64,000 nt of DNA from Candidatus Acidiferrales bacterium (GCA_035533875.1 DATLSZ010000038.1:355-64354), one strand, 5' to 3'; positions 14,124 through 64,000 are shown, counted from the first letter of the stretch. Notes: a model not told the origin generated them from the letters alone. Numbers and translations are program-made.

Positions 14124-14152
14124 CGAGCGTAAATGATTACTAATAGAGCGAG

Positions 14153-14181
14153 TTGATAAAGGAAGCTGAGCGATATATAAT
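14153..14181 (+). promoter_or_regulatory. Near-consensus sigma70 promoter for the 14200 gene
   Basis: TTGATA (14153-14158), 17-nt spacer, TATAAT (14176-14181). The ATG is 19 nt downstream. Confidence 0.6.
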
Positions 14182-14199
14182 TACAGAAAAGTGTAAGCT

Positions 14200-15030
14200 A
14201 TGAGCGGCGAAATGAAAGCACTTTCTCAAGCATCTGTAGTGAGTCCCCATGAACGTGGGAGAGAAGCTGTTTCTTCTGGTTTACCCAGTCCAGCTAAAAG
14301 GAGTTTAGGTGCACCGTCTACAAGTATCCATGTTCGAGGCCTTGGATCTCCAGGTAGAGTTCCAAAAGGAGATGCAAGTAGAGAAACACAAACTCGAGGT
14401 CTTGCGGAGCTTTATTATAGATTAAGACTAATGAGAAATCCAGGTCACGCAGAACTTCCTCCAGACCAACGAGAACAATGGGCGAGAAGTGATTGGGACA
14501 GAGCCTCAGCCGACTTATCGGAGAAAAGACCCTATGAAAAGTTAGTGGCTCAAACGAGAAAAAGGATAGGAAGAGCATGGTCGATAACGGGAAAAGAATT
14601 TGACACTACAGCGAGAATGGCGCAGGTATTGCATGAAGAACGCGCAGCGATGGCAGAAATAGATCGAGGTCATCGAGATACTCTTGGCCGAAGAGATCTC
14701 CCTGATCATGATTGGAGAGTTGCGCAAATTTTATTAAGAGGATACAGAGACCCGGATGCTCTTCTTGCGGCAATGGAACAAAGACGGGATGACGCAGTAA
14801 CAAGAGCAGCTAATACCCGGACAATAGCAGAACTTCATCATCAAAGAAGGCTATTACAAAATCCAGGTCACGCAGAACTTCCTCCAGACCAACGAGAACA
14901 ATGGGCGAAAAGAGATTGGGAGGAAGCATTGGATGTTGCAGTCATGGGAGAAGAAGCAGTCACCGGGTATTCGACACGTCTTCGGGAAGAAATTGGTCAA
15001 CTACAAGAAGTTAAGGATGGTCAGAGTTGA
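14200..15030 (+). CDS. Arg/Glu/Asp-rich repeat protein of unknown function; carries the N-terminal box shared with the 55.9-63.6 kb module
   Basis: 276 aa. STSIHVRGLGSPG box at aa 40-52. Internal duplication NPGHAELPPDQREQWA. AGA-rich Arg codon usage, unlike neighbours. Confidence 0.7.
   Translation: MSGEMKALSQASVVSPHERGREAVSSGLPSPAKRSLGAPSTSIHVRGLGSPGRVPKGDASRETQTRGLAELYYRLRLMRNPGHAELPPDQREQWARSDWDRASADLSEKRPYEKLVAQTRKRIGRAWSITGKEFDTTARMAQVLHEERAAMAEIDRGHRDTLGRRDLPDHDWRVAQILLRGYRDPDALLAAMEQRRDDAVTRAANTRTIAELHHQRRLLQNPGHAELPPDQREQWAKRDWEEALDVAVMGEEAVTGYSTRLREEIGQLQEVKDGQS
14436..14485 (+). repeat. Intragenic direct repeat, copy A (50 nt)
   Basis: Identical 50-mer AAATCCAGGTCACGCAGAACTTCCTCCAGACCAACGAGAACAATGGGCGA also occurs at 14859-14908. 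Confidence 0.9.
14859..14908 (+). repeat. Intragenic direct repeat, copy B (50 nt)
   Basis: Identical to 14436-14485. In frame, 423 nt apart. Confidence 0.9.
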
Positions 15031-55585: not shown

Positions 55586-55900
55586 ATGATTGCTTTATTG
55601 ATTGATACAACAAATAATAAAGAAGTGACGGTCGGATTGAAAATCGACGGCAAGGAGTTTATTAACAAAAAACCGCTTGATACGAGAAAGGCGCAAGTTG
55701 TGTTACCGATACTTGAGAAAATGCTTAAGGAACGGGGTTTGCAGTTAAAGGATTTGAATGCGATTGAAGTCAATCCCGGCCCCGGCTCATTCACGGGCAT
55801 CAGAGTTGGTTTGAGTATCGCCAATACCCTGGGATTTCTCCTCAAAATACCTGTTAATGGGAAAAGAGTTGGACTAACGACAAAGGCTGTTTATCAATAA
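55586..55900 (+). CDS. tsaB: TsaB (YeaZ)-like protein, short form (possibly truncated)
   Basis: NPGPGSFTGIRVGLSIAN motif. Only 104 aa. The stop is 2 nt from the convergent stop of the 55903 gene. Confidence 0.7.
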   Translation: MIALLIDTTNNKEVTVGLKIDGKEFINKKPLDTRKAQVVLPILEKMLKERGLQLKDLNAIEVNPGPGSFTGIRVGLSIANTLGFLLKIPVNGKRVGLTTKAVYQ

Positions 55901-55902
55901 GC

Positions 55903-57567
55903 TTACGCTCTATGGCCATGTCCCTGTGTTCTTGTGCGGCGTGGAGGTGCTAGTACTAAATGTTTTTGGGCCACTTGTCTTTCTCTCCGTGAGAATACAT
56001 TGGCAGGGAGTCCATCATAGGTCGGCCTTCGTGAAAGATCTCTGGCATCGAGTTCTCCCTTAAGCTGCCTAATCCGCAGTCCGTGCGTTTGCGCTAATTC
56101 TTGTTTTAAGGCATATACAACAGGTGCAGGTAATCCCTGGGCTCCTCCCAATACAGCAGCTTCATGGTGTTGGAGAGCTAAGTATGCTGCGCTTCCTGTC
56201 ATTGCTTCTTCTGCTTCTCTGAGATCGAGCTGGAGTCGCCCCGGTATACTTGCGGTACCAACATCCAATGGTAAACGATCACGGTTAACTTTATCTGTTT
56301 TATAAGTCGCGACAAGTCCTCTATGAAGTTTTTTCTGTCTTCTTCCTCGCATTCCTTCACGGACTTTTGCGCCTCCCCATACCGTAAATCCTCCCGCAGT
56401 TATGAGAGCTCCTGCTACAGAAGGTGTGTGACCATATACGTGTGCTAGATCAGCCAATCCTCTATTGATTAATTCGGCCAGTTCCATACCAAGTGTTTTA
56501 GCGTTGGCAGATGCGACTTGCACTGCAACTCTATAAGGAAATACATCATGAAGTTTGCTCCTTCTTAATAATGGTGGAGCGGTTACAACATTCTCTAGGG
56601 TAAGCGGAATTGCAGAAAATCCCCACAATGGATCCACCGCAGTAGCGAGTACCAATCCTGCTGACGCAAGTGACGTAGCACCGCTCACTAGTTGATTTGT
56701 AGGATTACGTCGATACGATTCAGCTCTGTCTTTTATCATATTACCAAGTAAATCGACACTGTCCTTCAATAATTCTGCATGTCTATCACTGAGAGGCAAA
56801 GCTGGATTTGCGCCTGTTACTACATCGGCGCTTCCAGGGTCTGGAATACGTCTTATCCTACGTTCTGCAGCAGCAAAAACGCTTCGTGCACCAGAACTAT
56901 CGTCTCCTCCCGAAGCTGCTCTTCGGCCTCCGCCATTTCCTCTTCCGCCGCCAGCTCCACCTGCAGCTTCAGAACCTCTTTCATGACCTGCATCAGATCC
57001 TGATCCTGCACCTCTGTCTGTTCCCGTGTCACTCCCCGCATTTACATCAGATCTCGGTCCTGCGCCTGCTTCAGATCCTGGTCCTGTGCCTGTTTCAGAT
57101 CCTGATCCTGCGCCTGCTTCAGATCCTGGTCCTGCGCCTCTCTCTGTTCTTGGCCTTCGGTTCCATCCTGCATCGGTTCTTGGTCCTGCGCCTCTCTCTG
57201 TTCCGGCTGCTCGTCCTGCTCCTTGATCCGTGCTACGTGGTTGATCACTTCCTGGAACCCCTGCCCTGCCTGCAGCAGCACTAGGTTCTCTTGGAACACC
57301 AGCACCTCTACCGGGTTCTCCAGGTGCACCTGGTGGTCTTCCCGGAACACCGTGATATTCAGCACCACCGGCTGGTGAGGCGGGACGTGGACCAGCTCCC
57401 TGTTCTTGCCCAGGGCCAGGTGCTTTGCGTCCTAATCCTCCTGGTAATCTAATATGAATACGACGGGAAGCACGGGGTCCTGTACTTCCAGGTCCGCTTT
57501 GCCCTTCACTGCCCAACGGGCTACTACCTCTTTCGGGTCTCCCCTCGGGTCTATTTAAGGAGCTCAT
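55903..57567 (-). CDS. Module protein A: 554-aa Gly/Arg/Pro/Ala/Glu-rich protein with a disordered N-half and a hydrophobic-segment C-half; unknown function
   Basis: Long ORF with its own TTGTAA-17-TATAAT promoter. N-terminal box SRRIHIRLPGGLG. Octapeptide repeats. Hydrophobic stretches LVSGATSLASAGLVLATAV and SVAGALITAGGFTVWGGA. Confidence 0.75.
   Translation of the reverse strand: MSSLNRPEGRPERGSSPLGSEGQSGPGSTGPRASRRIHIRLPGGLGRKAPGPGQEQGAGPRPASPAGGAEYHGVPGRPPGAPGEPGRGAGVPREPSAAAGRAGVPGSDQPRSTDQGAGRAAGTERGAGPRTDAGWNRRPRTERGAGPGSEAGAGSGSETGTGPGSEAGAGPRSDVNAGSDTGTDRGAGSGSDAGHERGSEAAGGAGGGRGNGGGRRAASGGDDSSGARSVFAAAERRIRRIPDPGSADVVTGANPALPLSDRHAELLKDSVDLLGNMIKDRAESYRRNPTNQLVSGATSLASAGLVLATAVDPLWGFSAIPLTLENVVTAPPLLRRSKLHDVFPYRVAVQVASANAKTLGMELAELINRGLADLAHVYGHTPSVAGALITAGGFTVWGGAKVREGMRGRRQKKLHRGLVATYKTDKVNRDRLPLDVGTASIPGRLQLDLREAEEAMTGSAAYLALQHHEAAVLGGAQGLPAPVVYALKQELAQTHGLRIRQLKGELDARDLSRRPTYDGLPANVFSRRERQVAQKHLVLAPPRRTRTQGHGHRA
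56993..57203 (-). repeat. Intragenic tandem repeats (24-nt units, plus a 22-nt duplicated block)
   Basis: Four consecutive 24-nt units start at 57047, 57071, 57095 and 57119 (TCAGATCCTGGTCCTGYGCCTGYT). GGTCCTGCGCCTCTCTCTGTTC occurs at 57128 and 57182. Confidence 0.85.
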
Positions 57568-57576
57568 AGTTAAATA

Positions 57577-57636
57577 ATTATAACATGATAATACTGTATT
57601 TACAAGTTGAACATTGTGGTATAAATATGGTATGAT
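57577..57636. promoter_or_regulatory. Compact divergent promoter region with back-to-back overlapping -35 elements
   Basis: Minus strand: TTGTAA (57605-57600), 17 nt, TATAAT (57582-57577). Plus strand: TTGAAC (57607-57612), 18 nt, TGgTATGAT (57628-57636), or TTTACA (57599-57604), 15 nt, TGgTATAAA. Confidence 0.55.
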
Positions 57637-57664
57637 ACAGATCTATAGTTTAGCTATAGTAAAA

Positions 57665-60600
57665 ATGAGAAAGAGTGACGCAGTTCCAGCTGGAGATGGA
57701 CCACAACATGAAGGAGGTGCACTTGTTGGTGCTTCTGTCCGTAGAACAATGACACCAGCAAAATTACCTCGAAGCATATGGGTGAGAAGGGGCGGCCCTG
57801 GTGAAAGGGCTGCACTCCCAGGTGCAGTAGTAGAACCTCGGTTGGCAACAGTGAGAGCTGTGCGGCATGTGCCCCAAACTCATGAACAAGCAAGAGACCA
57901 TGAGAAGGGAGCATTGGACGAAGCCTTAACTCGTGCTGTAAATACAGGTGAGCCTGTCGGTGTTGCTTTTTCACAACATGGAGGCAGAGTTAGCCATACG
58001 TTGATTGGACGTCCATTTGTTGGTGGAGACTCAGCGGATAAAATTGTCTTGGCATATCCACCTCGTGCTGTTGGCGAACACACAACTCAGGAAACGATAG
58101 ATCGTCAAATTGATTTTCCGCACTGGAGAAGATTACTTGTTGAACCACTTGCCGCACCCTCAAATCCAAAAAGAGCAGATAGTGACGGGTTAGATATCGA
58201 GAGTGCGATGCTCACCGGAGGGATGGAGGTTCCCGGGACGTATTTACTGTTGGGCCAGCAGCGGCATCCCGATGAGACTGGAAGATCGTTTGGTCAGACA
58301 CACGAACTGTTACGAAGAGCAAGAGGGAGCGTATCAGCAAGAGGTAGTGATCTTGAAAGAGGTCTTACGCAAATGACAGATAGACTCCGTAATAGAACAG
58401 GCGGAGATTTTGAAGTTGTGGCATATCTTGTCGGGTCGGATACTTCCGAACATGCAGATATGTTAGCCCATCGGATAGAACAAGCAGCAGCAAGTGGACG
58501 ACCGATCAATATAACAGTTGATCCAAGACCCTATGAAGGATTAGCACAAGCGGTTAAAGCAGGGGACAGTGCTCAACGACCAATGGTCGTAGGGAGAGAG
58601 AGTATTCCGGTTGGTTTGGCTAAGGATGACTTTGCGTCACTATTCCCACTCACCCCATTATCTGACTATGATGGAGAAGCGCGGAGACATCTCGTTCGTT
58701 GGTCAAGTCATTTTCCAAACCTTCATGATATACCTGATGAGAGACTCTGGGAGATCGGTGGTCTTTACACTGATGATGAAGTAGTCTTACCTGGGAGATT
58801 TCAAGTGGATATTGAAGCTGTGAGTGATCGTGTTGGTGTATTTGGAGAAACAGATTCCGGTAAAACAGTTTTGCTTATGCTCTACGCAGTGGGATTGGCA
58901 GCACACGGGATACCATCATGGGTTTGGCATCCAAAAGCCAATAAACAAGGCGATGCGACACCAGCTGAAAACATTGCAAGACTAGCGCAAAATTTAGGTG
59001 TAGAAACACCAGTCAGAGAATTAACTCCGGGAGATCTAACTCAAATACTATTTGGAATGGATGTACTCGATCACGGAGATATGGATCCCGCTACTTATTA
59101 TACTGAGGTGGTGGAATGGCTAACAAATGCATTTTATTCCACTGCTGGAACCGGAGAAAATACTGACAGCTTGATGTCAATTAAAAAGTTTGTGCATAAA
59201 GCAGTTTTCGGTGATGATATATCAAAAATCGCAACTACCACAGATCCAACAAAACAACGGTTTATGGGTTATGCGGAGCGAAAAGGGAGAGACGCATTGA
59301 CGGGATTAGATCTCATTACCGGAAGTGATCATATGCCCGGAAATTTCTTGGAGTTAGCTCAGGTAATTATTGAAGCAACAGAGCAACCTGACTATCAAGG
59401 AGAAGCGGCAAGTTTTGTCAAATGGTTTACTGGCCTTGTAGAAGTCGTCTCCACAAGTAGAGCCGGCTTATCTCTCCAGGGAGATACGAGAATGAATATT
59501 CTTGAATTATTTAATGGAATTACAAATTTCCAGACTGACGGGCTTGATGATATGGGATATGCGCTGATTTTTGGCGGCATGCTTCTTGAAGCAAAGAAAC
59601 ACCTAATGTACTCACCGGATAGATTAGCAATGATCGTTGATGAAATTGGAAAAATACTGAGGCCAGGCAGTCCACTCGAAGCACAAATGAAAGATGTTGC
59701 GGCACGATGGCGTTCTCTCGGCCTTGATTTTATTTATGCGGATCAACGACTTGGGAATGTTCCGAAAGATGTTCTTGGTAACACGGGAACATTAATGACT
59801 TTCAGAGTCCCAGAACAAGATGATTTAAGGACCGCACGTACACTGTTAGGTATAAGACCTGATCCCAACGGAGATGAACAAATCGCTGCTATAACTCACT
59901 TTATGACACGAGAACTTGCGGTATATGTGAAAGGTATGGGTATGGTAGAACCTGCACACGCGCAAGTTCGCTACTTGGATTTTTCAGGAACAGCACAACC
60001 TCTTCCGGCAGATACACTTATCATAGAAGATGAAGAAGGACTTAGACTTACCTTTGGTGAGACAAGAATGCTGGATTTACTATTTTATAGTCCACACATC
60101 GGTGCTGATATCCGAGCTCTTGCGGAGTTAGAGCTATTTAACAGAGAAGTTGGCCTTGATACTTATATGGCAGTATCTCCCGATTTGCAGGCTCGTCTGC
60201 AAGCGTTACAGGAGGATTTAGCTGACCCTCGATATATGCAGTATCTCGTCAAAAAAGCCGCGGAACGATCTCTGAGCGCACACTCATCAAGAGTTAATAC
60301 GGACGCATACTTAGAACTTACAGCCAAACAAGGAAAAACATTTGGCGAGTTTATTGCTCGTATCAGAGATGGAATGCATCACGCAATTAACGGAGAAGCA
60401 CCTGATGAGACGCCAGATAGGGAGTTTGTATTGCCGGGATATGAAACAATATGGGCAGAAGCAATTCTTACTTCCTGGATCAGCAATAGATCCCAGGATG
60501 CAATAAAAATATATAGTGCTTTAGTAGAGGGCACTCCGGAGGAAGTTCAAGCGCGATGGGAGCAGTTCCAGCAGGCACATGCCCGGGGTGAACTGGGTGC

Positions 60601-61768
60601 AGAGATTGAAAATGTATTAGGTGCTCCTGTGCCAAGTAATACTGAAGATGCAATAATTGCCTTTCTACAATCGATATCTGGAGGCTCGGAAGCAGCTATA
60701 CCAGGACTCATTGAGAAATTTCAACAAGGATTACCCCGGCCTGTAGAGAGAACAGATGAAGGTACTGAAAGAGATATTGCCGCAGAACTTGAAGAATTAC
60801 TTGGGTATCCCGTACCTGGAGAGACTGCCATGGATATGCTTAATTTCCTTCAGTTAAAACGAGCACCATTGGATCCGCTTACTTTTGCCAGGCAGCCATT
60901 TGGAAGAGGATATTTACTGGACGCTTTAGTAGGAGAGATAGGTATTGAAGAAGCTATTGTTAATGGCGACGCGAGCGAATTACGCGAACGGTTAGAGAAG
61001 AGATTGACGTTATTCAGTTTTTCCGATGTGAGTAAAGATGTACTCTTTGATAACATTATTGCGTTTGTAGAACTGGAGATAGAGAGAAGAAATAGTAGTG
61101 GAGCAAATCCGACAGAAGCATTAAACAGAGGGATTAAAGAAGCGGTTTCAGAAATTGGAGGAATTCTTGCAGCACTTGCAACTGCAAATTCCGGCGGCCA
61201 ATCTGCGCAGGCATTGGCACAAGTGCTTCAAAGTGAGTTAAGCCTTATGAGACAAGATCTTAGCAGGTTAGCCGGTACTGCAAGATCAGGTCAACAGGGT
61301 GAAACTAGCGAAGCAGGCATAACTAGTTTGTTGGAAGACAATACGGAAATAGAAAGTAGAAGATTGAATATGATTGATACTATTGCCCGTCATGTACGGA
61401 CATTTGGTACCGGATCTGAGTATGGAGATCGGATGATTGAAAGAATAAGTGAGGATTCTCAACTAGTTACGCTTCTGGCACGATTAGGTATAGTAGTCCC
61501 TGAACCGGGAACAGTAAATGAAAACACGGCTCAATTTAGCCCTCTTTTTTCAGCAGAAAATGATGATTTATATACATTACTTCCGTTATTTGTAGATGCA
61601 CCACAATTAACAGAAGCAATCATTGCGTTTCATGATAATCAATCAGAAGAAACACATGGTGCGTTGGAGGAAGCTATTGATAACGAATTTCCCTATGTAC
61701 TCAAAACAATAATTACTAATTTCTTCCCGGATGTTAATGCGAATGGAGGCAGTGATAATGCTAAATAA
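57665..61768 (+). CDS. Module protein B: 1367-aa protein with a central HerA/FtsK/VirB4-VirD4-like P-loop ATPase core and long uncharacterised flanks
   Basis: Walker A VGVFGETDSGKT (58844-58867). Walker B LAMIVDE (59624-59644). Then FIYADQRLGNVPKDVLGNTGTLMTFRV. N-terminal box RSIWVRRGGPG. Start set at ATG 57665. Confidence 0.8.
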   Translation: MRKSDAVPAGDGPQHEGGALVGASVRRTMTPAKLPRSIWVRRGGPGERAALPGAVVEPRLATVRAVRHVPQTHEQARDHEKGALDEALTRAVNTGEPVGVAFSQHGGRVSHTLIGRPFVGGDSADKIVLAYPPRAVGEHTTQETIDRQIDFPHWRRLLVEPLAAPSNPKRADSDGLDIESAMLTGGMEVPGTYLLLGQQRHPDETGRSFGQTHELLRRARGSVSARGSDLERGLTQMTDRLRNRTGGDFEVVAYLVGSDTSEHADMLAHRIEQAAASGRPINITVDPRPYEGLAQAVKAGDSAQRPMVVGRESIPVGLAKDDFASLFPLTPLSDYDGEARRHLVRWSSHFPNLHDIPDERLWEIGGLYTDDEVVLPGRFQVDIEAVSDRVGVFGETDSGKTVLLMLYAVGLAAHGIPSWVWHPKANKQGDATPAENIARLAQNLGVETPVRELTPGDLTQILFGMDVLDHGDMDPATYYTEVVEWLTNAFYSTAGTGENTDSLMSIKKFVHKAVFGDDISKIATTTDPTKQRFMGYAERKGRDALTGLDLITGSDHMPGNFLELAQVIIEATEQPDYQGEAASFVKWFTGLVEVVSTSRAGLSLQGDTRMNILELFNGITNFQTDGLDDMGYALIFGGMLLEAKKHLMYSPDRLAMIVDEIGKILRPGSPLEAQMKDVAARWRSLGLDFIYADQRLGNVPKDVLGNTGTLMTFRVPEQDDLRTARTLLGIRPDPNGDEQIAAITHFMTRELAVYVKGMGMVEPAHAQVRYLDFSGTAQPLPADTLIIEDEEGLRLTFGETRMLDLLFYSPHIGADIRALAELELFNREVGLDTYMAVSPDLQARLQALQEDLADPRYMQYLVKKAAERSLSAHSSRVNTDAYLELTAKQGKTFGEFIARIRDGMHHAINGEAPDETPDREFVLPGYETIWAEAILTSWISNRSQDAIKIYSALVEGTPEEVQARWEQFQQAHARGELGAEIENVLGAPVPSNTEDAIIAFLQSISGGSEAAIPGLIEKFQQGLPRPVERTDEGTERDIAAELEELLGYPVPGETAMDMLNFLQLKRAPLDPLTFARQPFGRGYLLDALVGEIGIEEAIVNGDASELRERLEKRLTLFSFSDVSKDVLFDNIIAFVELEIERRNSSGANPTEALNRGIKEAVSEIGGILAALATANSGGQSAQALAQVLQSELSLMRQDLSRLAGTARSGQQGETSEAGITSLLEDNTEIESRRLNMIDTIARHVRTFGTGSEYGDRMIERISEDSQLVTLLARLGIVVPEPGTVNENTAQFSPLFSAENDDLYTLLPLFVDAPQLTEAIIAFHDNQSEETHGALEEAIDNEFPYVLKTIITNFFPDVNANGGSDNAK

Positions 61769-61810: not shown

Positions 61811-63643
61811 ATGATGCCTATGGAAGCACGTGGAGAACAAGGAGGATTGCCAATGCGTGACGGCGCGCCACGCGGTGTTACTTCTCCGGTTTCATCAAGG
61901 AGAATTCATTTGCGTGGAGTTGGCGAGGGTGCCATCGCTCCCGGATTGCCACAACAACCAGCTATGGCAGAGACTACCACTATGAATCCTGGCAGGCCGG
62001 GAAGACCAGAACGGGCTCCTGGTGCAACCCCAGCATCAGCTTTTGATGCTATGAGAGGGTATCCAACGGCAGTAGTTATAGGAGATTCTCATAAACCTGG
62101 AGGAGTTGAGGAAGTTGCTAAAGCATTGACGCGCGCGCATCACAGGAAAGAGGGAACCTATACCGGTAAAGTCGCGATTCTTAACTTAAAGTCTGATAAA
62201 ACAGTATTGAGAGGAGTAGAAGATGACGTCGATCAAGCAGGGATATCTTGGGAGCGAAGAAGGCCTTCACCGGACGGATTACTCGGATTATTTACTGAAC
62301 GTGACGGGATGGTCAGTCCGTATAGAGCAGCTGGAGCTTTCGTTGATGCTATGCTTGCACAACGACGTGAACCGGTCGATCCTGGTTTTAGGACAAGGTG
62401 TCGTCATGAAGTACTCCAACTTATGACTGTCTTAACAGACTGGTCTCGGGTTGAAGTACCACAGGATATTATTGATAATGGACAAGATCCTGATGCAATG
62501 CATAGGTTGCCAAATGTCCCACCGGCGTTAGTTCCAAAAGTCACTCAAATAAGAGATGCCGCTGCACATGTACTCCTTCCACAACAAAGGGGGGTACAAC
62601 CCGGACCTTACGGAAGATTTCAATTAACTGATAATGTATCCACGTTGACAGATGCACAAAGAGAATTATTAACAGGACCAATGTATGGTATCTATGAAAC
62701 AATTCAAACCTTACCAGAACAAGAACAAGTATTGAAAGCGATACTCAATTTTGCCAATGGTTTACTTCCGTCTGGTACCAGAGATCCGATCACACGGGGT
62801 AATTCTCGTGAAGATGAAGCAAGAGGTGAAGCCGCACCAAGTAGCGTCAATATTCTTGATTTGCCTACTGATCCCAATGTTGATCCTTCATTGAAACAAC
62901 TGTTAATTAAACTTGCGATAAATGATTTGAAGCTTTCGCCGGTGGATATGTTGTTAGTATTGGGTGCTGGAGATGCTGATAAGGATGCTATACGGAAAAT
63001 GAGAGAAGAACATAACGGACAGGTAGTTCTTCAATTTGATGAGGTAACAGATCCGGCACTTGCAGTGATGGGTGGATATAGTGTTGTTGCGACGGTAGGA
63101 AATGTTCCGGGTACTGGTGCAGGTTCGGCTGCTCAGATACTTGCAGCAAGAAATGCGCAGTATCCAGATGGAGATCAGCCGGAAGGATTGCCGGGTGACC
63201 GTAAGGTGCAATTAGGTGATGTACAGACTGTATTCGCTCCAGGTTACATTACTGTCTTTACTCCAGAAGGACAGGTTTTTAGAGGGGTACCGATAAGACC
63301 CACATTGGAGGCGAGTGATAATCCGGTGCAGATTGAAGAAGAATATTTTGTGCAAGCTCGAGCTGCTCAACATCCGTTACTTACCGATAGAGTGTTTGAT
63401 TTAGTCGGAGGTGCTGTAAATCGTTTGCAAGGCGGTCGTCGCAGGATTGCTCTGAGACGCAGAGACAGAATCGAAGGTGGAACACAGCCAGCAGTCGAAC
63501 AACAGGAAGAAGTAGGTGAGATAGGCACTGGTAGACAACCCGAGGCTGCTCCTCCTTTAACATATCCTCTTCCGGCAGATACTATAGGGCAAGAAGGTCA
63601 AGATTTACCCCATGGAGATGTCCCACCAGAACCCTGGGAATAA
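61811..63643 (+). CDS. Module protein C: 610-aa protein of unknown function
   Basis: Begins 42 nt after protein B on the same strand. N-terminal box SSRRIHLRGVGEG. Arg/Gly/Pro/Glu/Asp-rich with A-ending codon bias. Confidence 0.75.
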   Translation: MMPMEARGEQGGLPMRDGAPRGVTSPVSSRRIHLRGVGEGAIAPGLPQQPAMAETTTMNPGRPGRPERAPGATPASAFDAMRGYPTAVVIGDSHKPGGVEEVAKALTRAHHRKEGTYTGKVAILNLKSDKTVLRGVEDDVDQAGISWERRRPSPDGLLGLFTERDGMVSPYRAAGAFVDAMLAQRREPVDPGFRTRCRHEVLQLMTVLTDWSRVEVPQDIIDNGQDPDAMHRLPNVPPALVPKVTQIRDAAAHVLLPQQRGVQPGPYGRFQLTDNVSTLTDAQRELLTGPMYGIYETIQTLPEQEQVLKAILNFANGLLPSGTRDPITRGNSREDEARGEAAPSSVNILDLPTDPNVDPSLKQLLIKLAINDLKLSPVDMLLVLGAGDADKDAIRKMREEHNGQVVLQFDEVTDPALAVMGGYSVVATVGNVPGTGAGSAAQILAARNAQYPDGDQPEGLPGDRKVQLGDVQTVFAPGYITVFTPEGQVFRGVPIRPTLEASDNPVQIEEEYFVQARAAQHPLLTDRVFDLVGGAVNRLQGGRRRIALRRRDRIEGGTQPAVEQQEEVGEIGTGRQPEAAPPLTYPLPADTIGQEGQDLPHGDVPPEPWE

Positions 63644-63727: not shown

Positions 63728-64000
63728 GAGGAATGAAGAAGATATTGCGGCATCTTTTAATACCTCACGAATCAAATAACCACAGGTCCCGTGTACTCCA
63801 TCATGATAGTTTATTGTTAATTATTTCCTTTCTTGTCGCTGGGCTTATCATTATCCAAGGAACTCACCGGGAATATCCGGCGGTGCTTGGAGACTCGACT
63901 GCTTCGATAACTGTTGAGGATCTCTTGAAAGATACCAACGTTGATAGGGAAGCGCATGGACTGGCGCCGTTAGTTCTTAACCCAGAATTGACCCAAGCAG
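63728..64000 (+). CDS. Membrane-anchored protein, 5' partial (CAP/YkwD-like domain beginning at the window edge)
   Basis: ATG at 63728, open to the window end. N-terminal IPHESNNHRSRVLH motif, a TM segment, then NVDREAHGLAPLVLNPELTQA typical of CAP-domain starts. Confidence 0.55.

What the first reader, a model, noticed from the sequence alone, without database searches (positions are those of the whole stretch)
57430..57802. A shared N-terminal box, S-x-R-I-H/W-(V/I/L)-R-x-x-G-x-G, in four otherwise unrelated proteins at two loci
SEEN: each of the four compositional-outlier proteins has the same short box 28-52 residues from its N-terminus, preceded by a disordered Gly/Ser/Pro/Arg stretch. 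The boxes are ASRRIHIRLPGGLG (554-aa protein, nt 57430-57468 minus), PRSIWVRRGGPG (1367-aa protein, 57770-57802), SSRRIHLRGVGEG (610-aa protein, 61892-61930) and STSIHVRGLGSPG (276-aa protein, 14317-14355). The underlying DNA is not conserved, so the constraint acts at protein level. INFERENCE: a box at a fixed N-terminal position in all members, including the ATPase, suggests a common recognition, targeting or assembly peptide. It could be a docking signal for the translocase or a shared processing site. I know of no described signal with this sequence.
Basis: seen in the sequence. Interest (0 to 1): 0.8.

Follow-up and report, generated by a model that had tools for sequence, protein, structure and literature searches.

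The report
Shared N-terminal tag on HerA-module proteins
Four otherwise unrelated proteins of an uncultivated bacterium, three of them encoded around a very rare HerA-type motor ATPase, carry the same short peptide about 35 residues from their start; selection keeps it at protein level, so it looks like a previously undescribed address or docking tag, but its function is untested.

Summary
The core I-[HW]-[ILV]-R occurs exactly four times in all six reading frames of the 64-kb window, each time 31-43 residues into one of the four named proteins. A composition-corrected, unbiased block search finds the same box (z 3.7, 0 of 100 shuffles). The DNA is not conserved: identical residues use different codons and third positions are saturated. 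In a close strain the box is constrained (dN/dS 0.31), while the rest of the leader drifts (1.46).

The box is the core of a disordered leader of about 50 residues. It sits on all three products of a conserved module, X | HerA/FtsK-clade ATPase | Y, and on one unlinked 276-aa protein. The ATPase family has only 8 representatives among 1.84 billion proteins.

Orthologues elsewhere do not keep this box. In one distant relative, however, 12 consecutive island proteins, probably 13, share their own different N-terminal leader. These include the ATPase, Y and an ECF sigma factor.

The best reading is a genome-specific docking motif recognised by a common partner of this ATPase system (confidence about 0.45). 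It is not a Tat, Sec, T7SS or double-glycine signal. The function is inferred, not shown.

The parts
55903..57567 (-). Gene X (554 aa). Leader, then a ~190-residue Gly/Ala/Ser/Glu/Arg/Pro low-complexity region, then a helical C-terminal half. No family match.
   Evidence: An unannotated minus-strand gene occupies the same position next to the ATPase in L003, L005/L019, L007 and L009. These are alignable only loosely (A7).
57409..57567 (-). N-terminal leader of X (residues 1-53). M1 is the only Met before residue 278, so the leader must be translated.
57430..57468 (-). Box in X: SRRIHIRLPGGLG (S34-G46)
56833..56862 (-). Second, box-like copy in X: RRIRRIPDPG (residues 236-245), at the junction between the disordered and folded parts
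   Evidence: loose regex; significance not established
57665..61768 (+). HerA/FtsK-clade P-loop ATPase (1367 aa) with Walker A GETDSGKT and Walker B MIVDEIGK
57665..57823 (+). N-terminal leader of the ATPase (residues 1-53)
57770..57802 (+). Box in the ATPase: RSIWVRRGGPG (R36-G46)
57845..57871 (+). ATVRAVRHV (residues 61-69). A second basic, strand-like element that resembles elements near the N-termini of ATPase orthologues (VRAV, VKVK, VRIH).
   Evidence: by eye, not tested statistically
61811..63643 (+). Gene Y (610 aa). A conserved partner lies immediately downstream of the ATPase in all six lineages. It has an alpha/beta N-domain and no family match.
61811..61957 (+). N-terminal leader of Y (residues 1-49)
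61892..61930 (+). Box in Y: SSRRIHLRGVGEG (S28-G40). It reads SRRVHVRGAGEG in the close strain L020.
63440..63481 (+). Box-like C-terminal element in Y: RRIALRRRDRIEGG (residues 544-557)
   Evidence: loose regex; significance not established
14200..15030 (+). p276: an unlinked 276-aa protein with the same leader and an internal ~40-residue duplication. It lies between a HAD hydrolase gene and a LysR regulator gene. No homologue was found in the related loci.
14317..14355 (+). Box in p276: STSIHVRGLGSPG (S40-G52)

Best explanation
The box is the constrained core of a disordered N-terminal leader of about 50 residues. The core is a short, strand-like stretch, [RS]-I-[HW]-[ILV]-R, that runs into a Gly-rich turn, G-x-G-x-x-[A/G]...P-G. 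The leader is carried by every product of a rare three-gene module (X | HerA/FtsK-clade ATPase | Y) and by one satellite protein, p276. I propose that it is a short linear docking motif on a flexible tether. One common partner would recognise the box and so bring these unrelated proteins to the same assembly. The simplest candidate partner is the ATPase ring or a domain of X or Y. The tagged proteins could be co-assembling subunits or clients handed to the ATPase. The ATPase's own copy would place it in the same assembly or occupy its site in cis.

Shown: the box exists and is specific. It is always N-terminal. Selection acts on the peptide. It is linked to a conserved HerA-type module. An independent, genome-specific leader exists on 12-13 island proteins in a second lineage.

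Inferred: that the box is bound by a partner, which partner that is, and whether the outcome is assembly, translocation or regulation.
For: 1. Specificity. Only 4 hits of the core occur in six frames of 64 kb, all at residues 31-43 of these proteins. None of the other ~47 genes in the window has it.

2. Statistics. The unbiased composition-corrected block search recovers the box (z 3.7, 0 of 100 shuffles). For the first 65 residues, Smith-Waterman (SW) alignment z-scores against shuffles are 4.6 for X-Y and 4.6 for Y-p276.

3. Peptide-level selection. The X and Y leaders share 30 of 67 residues but only 9 of those 30 use the same codon, and third-position identity is 0.33. Against a strain 94.6% identical, dN/dS is 0.31 in the box with only conservative changes (I>V, L>V, V>A). 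It is 1.46 in the rest of the leader and 0.16 in the rest of Y. This is the signature of a short linear motif in a drifting disordered region.

4. Functional linkage. ATPase-Y adjacency is conserved in six lineages, with X upstream on the opposite strand in five of them. The adjacent CAP-domain gene lacks the leader.

5. Independent parallel. In L007 (also recovered as L011), 12 consecutive, otherwise unrelated proteins share a different ~45-residue N-terminal leader. They include the ATPase, Y and an ECF-type sigma factor. Phe and Pro are invariant. A locally built profile HMM of the leader scores 28-49 bits, and all hits lie at the N-termini. A 13th, truncated gene matches weakly (E = 0.007). 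Three flanking non-island genes lack the leader. The third codon position is the least conserved.

6. Within-genome similarity among non-homologues exceeds similarity between orthologues across genomes (mean z 1.9 and 1.8 against about 0). This is expected if each genome's tags co-evolve with one receptor.

7. No leader-bearing protein has a Sec signal peptide or a convincing membrane segment, so the motif acts in the cytoplasm or on a non-Sec route.
Against: No binding, structural or expression data exist. AlphaFold2 run on single sequences gave unusable models (pLDDT 38).

In four of the six lineages (L003, L005/L019, L008, L009) a shared leader could not be demonstrated statistically. The three-sequence test also misses the obvious L007 leader, so its power is low.

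The window leader and the L007 leader are not detectably homologous (hhalign not significant). The parallel is therefore an analogy.

A tag carried by the machine's own ATPase is unusual for a substrate signal. The ATPase box is the most divergent of the four (z about 0 against X and p276).

The dN/dS values rest on few substitutions: 3 synonymous and 3 non-synonymous in the box.
Confidence: 0.45

Rival explanations
1. The leader is a cleavable pro-peptide. The box plus the Gly-rich turn would be a processing site for one dedicated protease, which removes the leader to activate or mature the module proteins. Known parallels are pro-sigma factors, phage prohead substrates and the L27/Prp system.
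For: The site lies at a fixed short distance from the N-terminus and is followed by small residues (G-x-G, and GG in 2 of 4 proteins). In L007 a sigma factor carries the leader on a ~120-residue extension, which recalls pro-sigma factors. The sequence upstream of the box evolves fast, as expected for a discarded peptide.
Against: No protease gene is recognisable in or next to the module in any locus. The residues conserved are a hydrophobic/basic strand rather than a defined P1/P1' pair, and the spacing to the Gly residues varies by 0-2. In X the leader is followed by ~190 further disordered residues, so cleavage would not expose a folded domain. This rival is compatible with, not exclusive of, a docking function.
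Confidence: 0.15
2. The leader is an inherited N-terminal module with an autonomous biochemical role and no common receptor. For example, it could be an Arg/Gly-rich nucleic-acid-binding or condensate-forming arm that spread among these genes by ancient recombination.
For: The leaders are Arg/Gly/Pro/Ser-rich and disordered. X also carries an RGG-like stretch (GGGRGNGGGRR). X and Y align over ~76 residues, more than a minimal motif. Both loci are compositional outliers, which suggests a shared foreign origin.
Against: The conserved residues are Ile, His/Trp and Ile/Leu/Val, not the Arg/Gly that such arms depend on. Outside the box the leader drifts at dN/dS of about 1 or more. Synonymous sites between the X and Y leaders are saturated, so any spread was ancient and the box has since been held by selection. 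Genome-specific uniformity across 12-13 unrelated proteins in L007 is hard to explain without a common reader.
Confidence: 0.15
3. The box is a secretion signal of a known type: a degenerate twin-arginine (Tat) signal (SRRIHIR and SRRIHLR resemble S-R-R-x-F-L-K), a double-glycine leader, or a T7SS signal.
For: Two of the four boxes begin S-R-R-x-h-h-[RK] near the N-terminus. Y has A-M-A about 20 residues downstream. The profile built from the ATPase family alignment hits FtsK (E about 1e-6) and, more weakly, EccC (E about 1e-3).
Against: No hydrophobic h-region follows the box in any of the four proteins; R, K and E occur within the next 20 residues, and no 19-residue window reaches Kyte-Doolittle 1.5 (KD, a hydropathy scale) in the N-terminal regions. 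Two boxes lack RR. One bearer is a cytoplasmic P-loop ATPase, and in L007 another is a sigma factor. No TatA/TatC, C39-ABC exporter or WXG100 genes appear among the neighbours scanned. T7SS signals are C-terminal.
Confidence: 0.04
4. The box acts on the ribosome as a nascent-peptide element (arrest or pausing) that co-regulates translation of the four genes, rather than acting in the mature protein.
For: Conservation is at peptide level, at a fixed ~30-45 codons from the start. At that point the N-terminus is only just leaving the exit tunnel. Trp/His-hydrophobic-Arg followed by Gly/Pro loosely recalls arrest motifs (my own recollection, not tested).
Against: There is no similarity to described arrest peptides beyond composition. 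No downstream regulated cistron or structure is evident. The phenomenon covers 12-13 genes with a quite different sequence in L007. An arrest function does not explain restriction to one functional module.
Confidence: 0.06
5. The box is a chance or composition artefact of Arg/Gly-rich N-termini.
For: The bare 4-residue core is expected ~6 times per six-frame window. The motif definition was made after seeing the data. An uncorrected BLOSUM block search preferred a Gly/Pro block.
Against: All 4 occurrences fall in the 4 pre-flagged proteins at residues 31-43. The composition-corrected unbiased search recovers the box with 0 of 100 shuffles reaching it. The conserved residues (I, H, W, V, L) are the rare ones in these segments. 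Conservative replacement is seen in a sister strain.
Confidence: 0.03

Closest known systems
Short targeting or encapsulation peptides on disordered tethers: bacterial microcompartment encapsulation peptides, encapsulin cargo-loading peptides, the BclA-type N-terminal exosporium-targeting motif, and N-terminal packing signals of extracellular contractile injection system cargo. This comparison rests on my own knowledge, not on a test here.
   Same: A motif of 10-20 residues sits near a terminus, on a flexible linker, and is shared by otherwise unrelated proteins encoded near the machinery they join. Sequence outside the motif is free to drift.
   Different: No shell, sheath, tube or exosporium genes are recognisable in any of the six loci. 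The motif sequence is unrelated. The motor ATPase itself, and in L007 a sigma factor, carry the tag.
Type VII secretion (ESX/Ess): an FtsK/SpoIIIE-family ATPase (EccC/EssC) that recognises signal peptides on its substrates
   Same: A P-loop ATPase of the FtsK/HerA superfamily is encoded next to small sets of unrelated proteins that share a recognition motif. No Sec signal is present.
   Different: T7SS signals are C-terminal (YxxxD/E, WXG100 helical hairpins). EccC has membrane segments and three ATPase domains. Here there is a single HerA-clade domain with no membrane segment, EccC similarity only at E about 1e-3, and no WXG100 or Ecc/Ess partners.
Twin-arginine (Tat) signal peptides, S/T-R-R-x-F-L-K
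   Same: An N-terminal S-R-R-x-h-h-basic string is present in X and Y.
   Different: There is no hydrophobic h-region. Two of the four boxes lack RR. The bearers include cytoplasmic enzymes.
HerA-partner modules: archaeal HerA-NurA, and the bacterial defence systems Sir2-HerA and DUF4297-HerA
   Same: The ATPase core is HerA-like. Orthologues hit Pfam DUF87/HerA_C, and the family profile hits solved HerA structures at E about 4e-11. It is encoded with dedicated partner genes. L008 sits among toxin-antitoxin genes.
   Different: The protein is 2-2.5 times longer than HerA (912-1378 aa), with large unique N- and C-terminal regions. The partners X and Y match no nuclease, Sir2 or other effector family. 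PADLOC gives only weak HerA and mad8 hits. No shared N-terminal tag is described for those systems, to my knowledge.
RiPP leader peptides bound by PqqD-like recognition elements
   Same: The concept is the same: a short leader strand recognised by one reader domain within a gene cluster, with cluster-specific leader sequences.
   Different: The bearers here are large proteins (276-1367 aa), not short precursor peptides. The only PqqD signal is an insignificant hit (E 0.033) in one L007 protein.

Membership tests
HerA/FtsK-clade P-loop ATPase (for the 1367-aa protein) | Walker A GxxxxGK[ST] and Walker B hhhhDE in a RecA-like core | tested here: met
   GETDSGKT (residues ~404-411) and MIVDEIGK (~655-662) in the translation. 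G, K, T and E are invariant in the 7-sequence alignment.
HerA/FtsK-clade P-loop ATPase (for the 1367-aa protein) | Significant profile similarity to HerA/DUF87 or FtsK families | tested here: met
   The window protein alone has no Pfam hit. Its orthologues hit DUF87 and HerA_C above the curated cut-offs. The family profile hits solved HerA structures at E = 4e-11 to 4e-10 and FtsK at 2e-6.
HerA/FtsK-clade P-loop ATPase (for the 1367-aa protein) | Hexameric ring with a central pore | not testable with these tools
   No usable structure prediction was possible.
Tat signal peptide | Twin-arginine motif S/T-R-R-x-F-L-K in the n-region | tested here: inconclusive
   SRRIHIR (X) and SRRIHLR (Y) resemble it. 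PRSIWVR (ATPase) and STSIHVR (p276) lack RR.
Tat signal peptide | Uncharged hydrophobic h-region of 12-20 residues after the RR motif, then an A-x-A cleavage site | tested here: not met
   Charged residues lie within 20 residues after the box in all four proteins. No 19-residue window with KD of 1.5 or more occurs in the N-terminal regions.
Type VII secretion substrate and EccC/EssC system | C-terminal YxxxD/E or WXG100-type signal, and a multi-domain membrane-anchored FtsK/SpoIIIE ATPase with Ecc/Ess partners | tested here: not met
   The motif is N-terminal. There is a single ATPase domain and no membrane segment. EccC similarity is only E about 1e-3. No WXG100 or Ess/Ecc Pfam hits occur in the neighbours.
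Double-glycine (C39-processed) leader peptides | A 15-30 residue leader ending in GG or GA on a small precursor, with a C39-peptidase ABC exporter in the cluster | tested here: not met
   Only 2 of 4 boxes contain GG. The bearers are 276-1367 aa. No C39-ABC exporter adjoins the module. The only C39-like signal is a sub-threshold hit in a PcsB-like protein 4 kb away.
HerA-based anti-phage defence systems (Sir2-HerA, DUF4297-HerA and others in PADLOC) | A HerA of ~500-600 aa paired with a recognised effector (Sir2, nuclease, etc.) | tested here: not met
   PADLOC gives only weak HerA and mad8 hits to the ATPase and nothing for X, Y or p276. The protein is 912-1378 aa.
Phage or plasmid (mobile element) module | Homologues in phage, plasmid or viral-contig collections, with structural or transfer genes nearby | tested here: not met
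   tblastn found no match in 72,556 plasmids or 50,697 phages, and none in IMG/VR. PHROG hits were only to the P-loop region.

The most novel reading that the evidence does not exclude
The leader is a new class of genome-specific N-terminal 'address label'. It would mark both the components and the clients of a previously unrecognised HerA-type ATPase machine for protein assembly or translocation in uncultivated bacteria, and it would co-evolve with its receptor. In one lineage it labels four proteins. In another it labels a whole 13-gene island that includes its own ECF sigma factor.
Probability: 0.3. Interest if true: 0.85.

Novelty: new variant of a known kind. Interest (0 to 1): 0.6.

Why it matters
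If the box is a docking or targeting tag, it does two things. It defines the membership of an uncharacterised cellular system by sequence alone: scanning a genome for its leader lists every component and client. It also gives a direct experimental handle, through leader-reporter fusions and box point mutants, on an ATPase family so rare that homology says nothing about its role (8 representatives among 1.84 billion proteins). The pattern 'same tag within a genome, different tag between genomes' would also be a clean natural example of signal-receptor co-evolution. If it is instead only a processing site or an autonomous disordered arm, the finding is a modest curiosity about a rare gene cluster.

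Tried and rejected
1. Leader-profile searches of the 5.8-billion-protein collection returned nothing at E of 10 or less. I tried the window leaders (A4) and the L007 leaders (A5). Short low-complexity profiles cannot reach significance there, so the genome-wide spread of the tag is unknown.

2. The full-length ATPase found only itself in the word-indexed search. The exhaustive HMMER search gave 8 representative proteins.

3. The GTDB genome scan found one locus, identical to L007. The metagenome scan found only distant HerA proteins that match the Walker-B region. The viral, plasmid and phage collections gave nothing.

Single-sequence AlphaFold2 of Y and X gave pLDDT 38, so no fold search was run. 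The model's strand at Y residues 32-35 (the box) has too little confidence to use.

5. The profile comparison of Y against the ATPase was not significant (probability 2.8%). Y is therefore not shown to be a degenerate paralogue of the ATPase. PDB profile searches with Y and X gave nothing credible.

6. By eye I saw a three-part leader (E-x-G near Met, then S-F or S-L, then the box) in all six loci. Statistics support a shared leader only in the window and in L007, so I do not claim it for L003, L005/L019, L008 or L009.

7. I considered reading the box as a Rossmann-type beta-strand plus GxGxx[G/A] fingerprint. I dropped this because the context is disordered and proline-rich, and the sister strain breaks the pattern.

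8. Rfam and tRNA scans of the window found nothing. No RNA-level explanation is needed, since the DNA is not conserved.

9. Four literature searches found no description of this motif or module.

11. The first composition-corrected block script timed out without output. The faster version is.

Full report

- X: 554 aa, 55903-57567, minus strand, SRRIHIRLPGGLG at residues 34-46.
- ATPase: 1367 aa from the ATG at 57665, RSIWVRRGGPG at residues 36-46.
- Y: 610 aa, 61811-63643, SSRRIHLRGVGEG at residues 28-40.
- p276: 14200-15030, STSIHVRGLGSPG at residues 40-52.

The core I-[HW]-[ILV]-R occurs exactly four times in the six-frame translation of the whole 64-kb window, and only at these sites. That bare core is not rare: shuffled sequence gives about 6. 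With its flanks the pattern is expected 0.03 times and is seen 4 times.

That pattern was written after seeing the data, so I ran an unbiased test. I searched the first 70 residues of the four proteins exhaustively for the best ungapped block, with substitution scores corrected for the local Arg/Gly/Pro-rich composition. The search returned RIHIR/SIWVR/RIHLR/SIHVR at residues 36/37/31/42. The z-score was 3.7 and none of 100 shuffles reached it. Without the correction, a non-significant Gly/Pro block wins. The signal therefore lies in the residues that are rare in these segments (Ile, His, Trp, Val, Leu) and not in the composition.

The spacing to the glycines varies by 0-2 residues.

**The constraint acts on the peptide**

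The four DNA segments do not align. Identical residues use different codons: S-R-R is TCC CGT CGT in X and TCA AGG AGA in Y, and the final Arg is AGA, AGA, CGT or CGA.

The X and Y leaders align over ~76 residues (E = 1e-7; shuffle z = 4.6). They share 30 of 67 aligned residues, but only 9 of those 30 use the same codon, and third-position identity is 0.33. Synonymous sites are therefore saturated.

A co-occurring strain (L020) has a Y protein 94.6% identical. Sixteen of the 33 differences fall in the first 75 residues. Nei-Gojobori dN/dS values are:
- the whole leader: 0.97;
- the leader without the box: 1.46;
- the box: 0.31, with SRRIHLRGVGEG becoming SRRVHVRGAGEG (conservative changes only);
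- the remaining 535 codons: 0.16.

The counts are small. Still, the picture is that of a short linear motif held in a freely drifting disordered region.

The leaders are very likely translated. X has no Met between M1 and residue 278. The ATPase box lies downstream of every candidate start codon. The leader regions are GC-rich coding-like sequence, not AT-rich spacer.

**What the genes are**

None of the four proteins matches Pfam, NCBIfam, PHROGs or PADLOC beyond weak P-loop hits.

The 1367-aa protein has Walker A (GETDSGKT) and Walker B (MIVDEIGK) motifs. Its orthologues hit DUF87 and HerA_C above the curated cut-offs. A profile of the family hits solved HerA structures at E about 4e-11, FtsK at about 2e-6 and EccC at about 1e-3.

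The family is extremely rare.
- The word-indexed search of 5.8 billion proteins found only the protein itself.
- An exhaustive HMMER scan of 1.84 billion representatives found 8 proteins.
- Plasmids, phages and IMG/VR gave nothing.
- Only one GTDB genome carries it.

The contigs that encode the homologues show a conserved arrangement. An unannotated gene of ~430-550 aa lies on the opposite strand (X), then the ATPase, then a ~430-610-aa gene (Y). This holds in the window, L003, L005/L019, L007 (= L011) and L009. L008 lacks X.

The Y proteins are alignable (A6; BLAST). The X proteins correspond only by position and loose alignment. No leader-bearing protein has a signal peptide or a convincing membrane segment.

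To the right of Y lie a membrane-anchored CAP-domain protein and a small His-rich membrane protein, neither with a leader. The order is the same in L003. The module therefore sits in conserved chromosomal synteny in that lineage.

NCBI labels the contig 'Candidatus Acidoferrales bacterium' (MAG, all four 'hypothetical protein'). At 41% GC that label is doubtful. The L007/L011 genome is labelled 'uncultured Gammaproteobacteria'.

**Do homologues elsewhere have the box?**

They do not have this box. No orthologous X, ATPase or Y protein carries I-[HW]-h-R at the corresponding place. The first 65 residues of orthologues are not similar across lineages (mean shuffle z about 0).

L007 shows the same phenomenon with a different sequence. 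Twelve consecutive genes encode proteins that are otherwise unrelated, with no intra-locus BLAST hits. They include the ATPase, Y, X and an ECF-type sigma factor with Sigma70 r2 and r4 regions. All begin with a common leader of ~45 residues: M-x(1-4)-E-[ST]-G ... [SA]-F ... G-x-[ED]-G-x-x-P-x-R-x-x-R-[IV]-x-S-[PL]. Phe and Pro are invariant.

A locally built profile HMM of this leader scores 28-49 bits, always at the N-terminus. A 13th, truncated gene matches weakly (E = 0.007). The three flanking non-island genes in the locus lack the leader. The 'R-[IV]-x-S-[PL]' element occurs 9 times in these proteins, always at residues 31-75. The third codon position is the least conserved and synonymous codons vary.

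The window leader and the L007 leader are not detectably homologous (hhalign not significant). In L003, L005/L019, L008 and L009 I thought I saw similar motifs by eye. Pairwise and block statistics do not support them. The three-sequence test also misses the obvious L007 leader, so it is weak.

The defensible statement is this. In two of six lineages, unrelated proteins of this module share a genome-specific N-terminal leader. Within-genome similarity among non-homologues (mean z 1.9 and 1.8) exceeds between-genome similarity among orthologues (about 0).

**How it most likely works**

The pattern has five parts:
- a constrained strand-like core on a drifting disordered tether;
- a strictly N-terminal position;
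- restriction to one gene module plus a satellite gene;
- a different sequence in different genomes but a uniform one within a genome;
- bearers that are cytoplasmic-type proteins.

This is what a short docking motif read by one common partner would produce, with tag and reader co-evolving. The only recognisable enzyme is the HerA-type ATPase. FtsK-superfamily ATPases that read peptide signals are known (EccC/EssC; my own knowledge). The ATPase or its partners X and Y are therefore the simplest candidate readers. Whether the outcome is co-assembly, hand-over for translocation, or autoinhibition and competition (the ATPase carries its own copy) cannot be decided here. I put this explanation at about 0.45.

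Rival explanations:
- Cleavable pro-peptide or processing site (0.15). It fits the fixed N-terminal distance, the small residues after the box and the leader-bearing sigma factor. No protease gene is recognisable, and ~190 disordered residues follow the leader in X.
- Autonomous Arg/Gly arm spread by ancient recombination (0.15). The conserved residues are the hydrophobic and aromatic ones, and the rest of the leader drifts.
- Nascent-peptide translational element (0.06).
- Known secretion signal (0.04). SRRIHIR and SRRIHLR resemble the Tat S-R-R-x-F-L-K motif. However, there is no hydrophobic h-region, two boxes lack RR, and the bearers include an ATPase and a sigma factor.
- Chance or composition (0.03).

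**Comparison with what is known**

In working principle the nearest relatives are short targeting or encapsulation peptides on flexible linkers (microcompartment and encapsulin cargo peptides, the BclA exosporium motif, contractile-injection cargo signals) and T7SS signal recognition by an FtsK-type ATPase. In membership it belongs to none of them. No shell or sheath genes are present. The T7SS, Tat and double-glycine features were tested and not met. HerA defence-system partners are absent. There are no homologues on phages or plasmids. I found no paper describing the motif or the module.

**Limits**

The function is wholly inferred. Leader-profile searches of the large databases failed, so I do not know how many proteins per genome carry the tag. 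Structure prediction was not informative.

**Verdict**

The feature is real and selected at the peptide level. It is the core of a longer leader that marks the products of a very rare HerA-type ATPase module. The box is genome-specific rather than family-wide. Interest 0.6. Novelty: a new variant of a known kind (short N-terminal targeting or docking peptides) attached to an uncharacterised system.

Noticed in passing
L007:298-20339 (same region as L011, GenBank OZ246394.1): A ~20-kb island of 12 consecutive genes, probably 13, whose products all start with one shared ~45-residue leader (invariant Phe and Pro; '...SF..G.EG..P.R..RIVSP'). The products include a HerA-like ATPase, its X and Y partners, two proteins of ~930-990 aa and an ECF-type sigma factor with a ~120-residue N-terminal extension. 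None of the others has any Pfam or PHROG match.
   Followed up: partly
window 55586-55900 (+): The tsaB (YeaZ) ORF is only 104 aa and covers positions 2-90 of the 212-position TIGR03725 model. It ends 2 nt before the stop codon of the convergent gene X, where GC rises from ~0.42 to ~0.50. Either tsaB is truncated by insertion of the X-ATPase-Y block, or this lineage has a half-length TsaB. The right-hand boundary lies outside the window.
   Followed up: partly
window 56833-56862 (-), 63440-63481 (+), 57845-57871 (+): There are extra box-like elements. X has RRIRRIPDPG at residues 236-245, where the disordered region meets the folded half. Y has RRIALRRRDRIEGG near its C-terminus. The ATPase has ATVRAVRHV at residues 61-69, which resembles strand-like elements near the N-termini of its orthologues. 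Their significance was not tested.
   Followed up: no
window 56880-57410 (-): X contains ~190 residues of Gly/Ala/Ser/Glu/Arg/Pro low complexity with quasi-repeats (ERGAGP..., GSEAGAG...) and an RGG-like stretch (GGGRGNGGGRR). This makes X the most GC-rich gene in the window (0.52 against ~0.41).
   Followed up: no
window 14200-15030 (+): p276 has an internal duplication of ~40 residues (…LMRNPGHAELPPDQREQWARSDWDRA… and …LLQNPGHAELPPDQREQWAKRDWEEA…). It is a GC outlier (0.47) between a HAD hydrolase gene (0.37) and a LysR regulator gene (0.39). No homologue was found in any related locus.
   Followed up: partly
window 57568-57664 and 14124-14199: Consensus-like sigma-70 promoters (TTGTAA-17-TATAAT upstream of X, TTGATA-17-TATAAT upstream of p276) lie very close to the start codons. 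The -10 box of X ends 9 nt before the ATG, which suggests a leaderless or near-leaderless mRNA.
   Followed up: no
window 63733-64000 (+), L020:2158-3293, L003:6011-7195: Downstream of Y lie a CAP/SCP-domain protein with N- and C-terminal membrane segments and a small His-rich membrane protein (…HHYVHHDLH…). They are in the same order in the window lineage and in L003. Neither carries the leader.
   Followed up: partly
whole window: The contig encodes near-complete de novo purine and folate biosynthesis, SecA, and FtsEX with a PcsB-like protein, at ~41% GC. This sits oddly with its NCBI label 'Candidatus Acidoferrales bacterium' (Acidobacteriota). The contig may be mis-binned.
   Followed up: no
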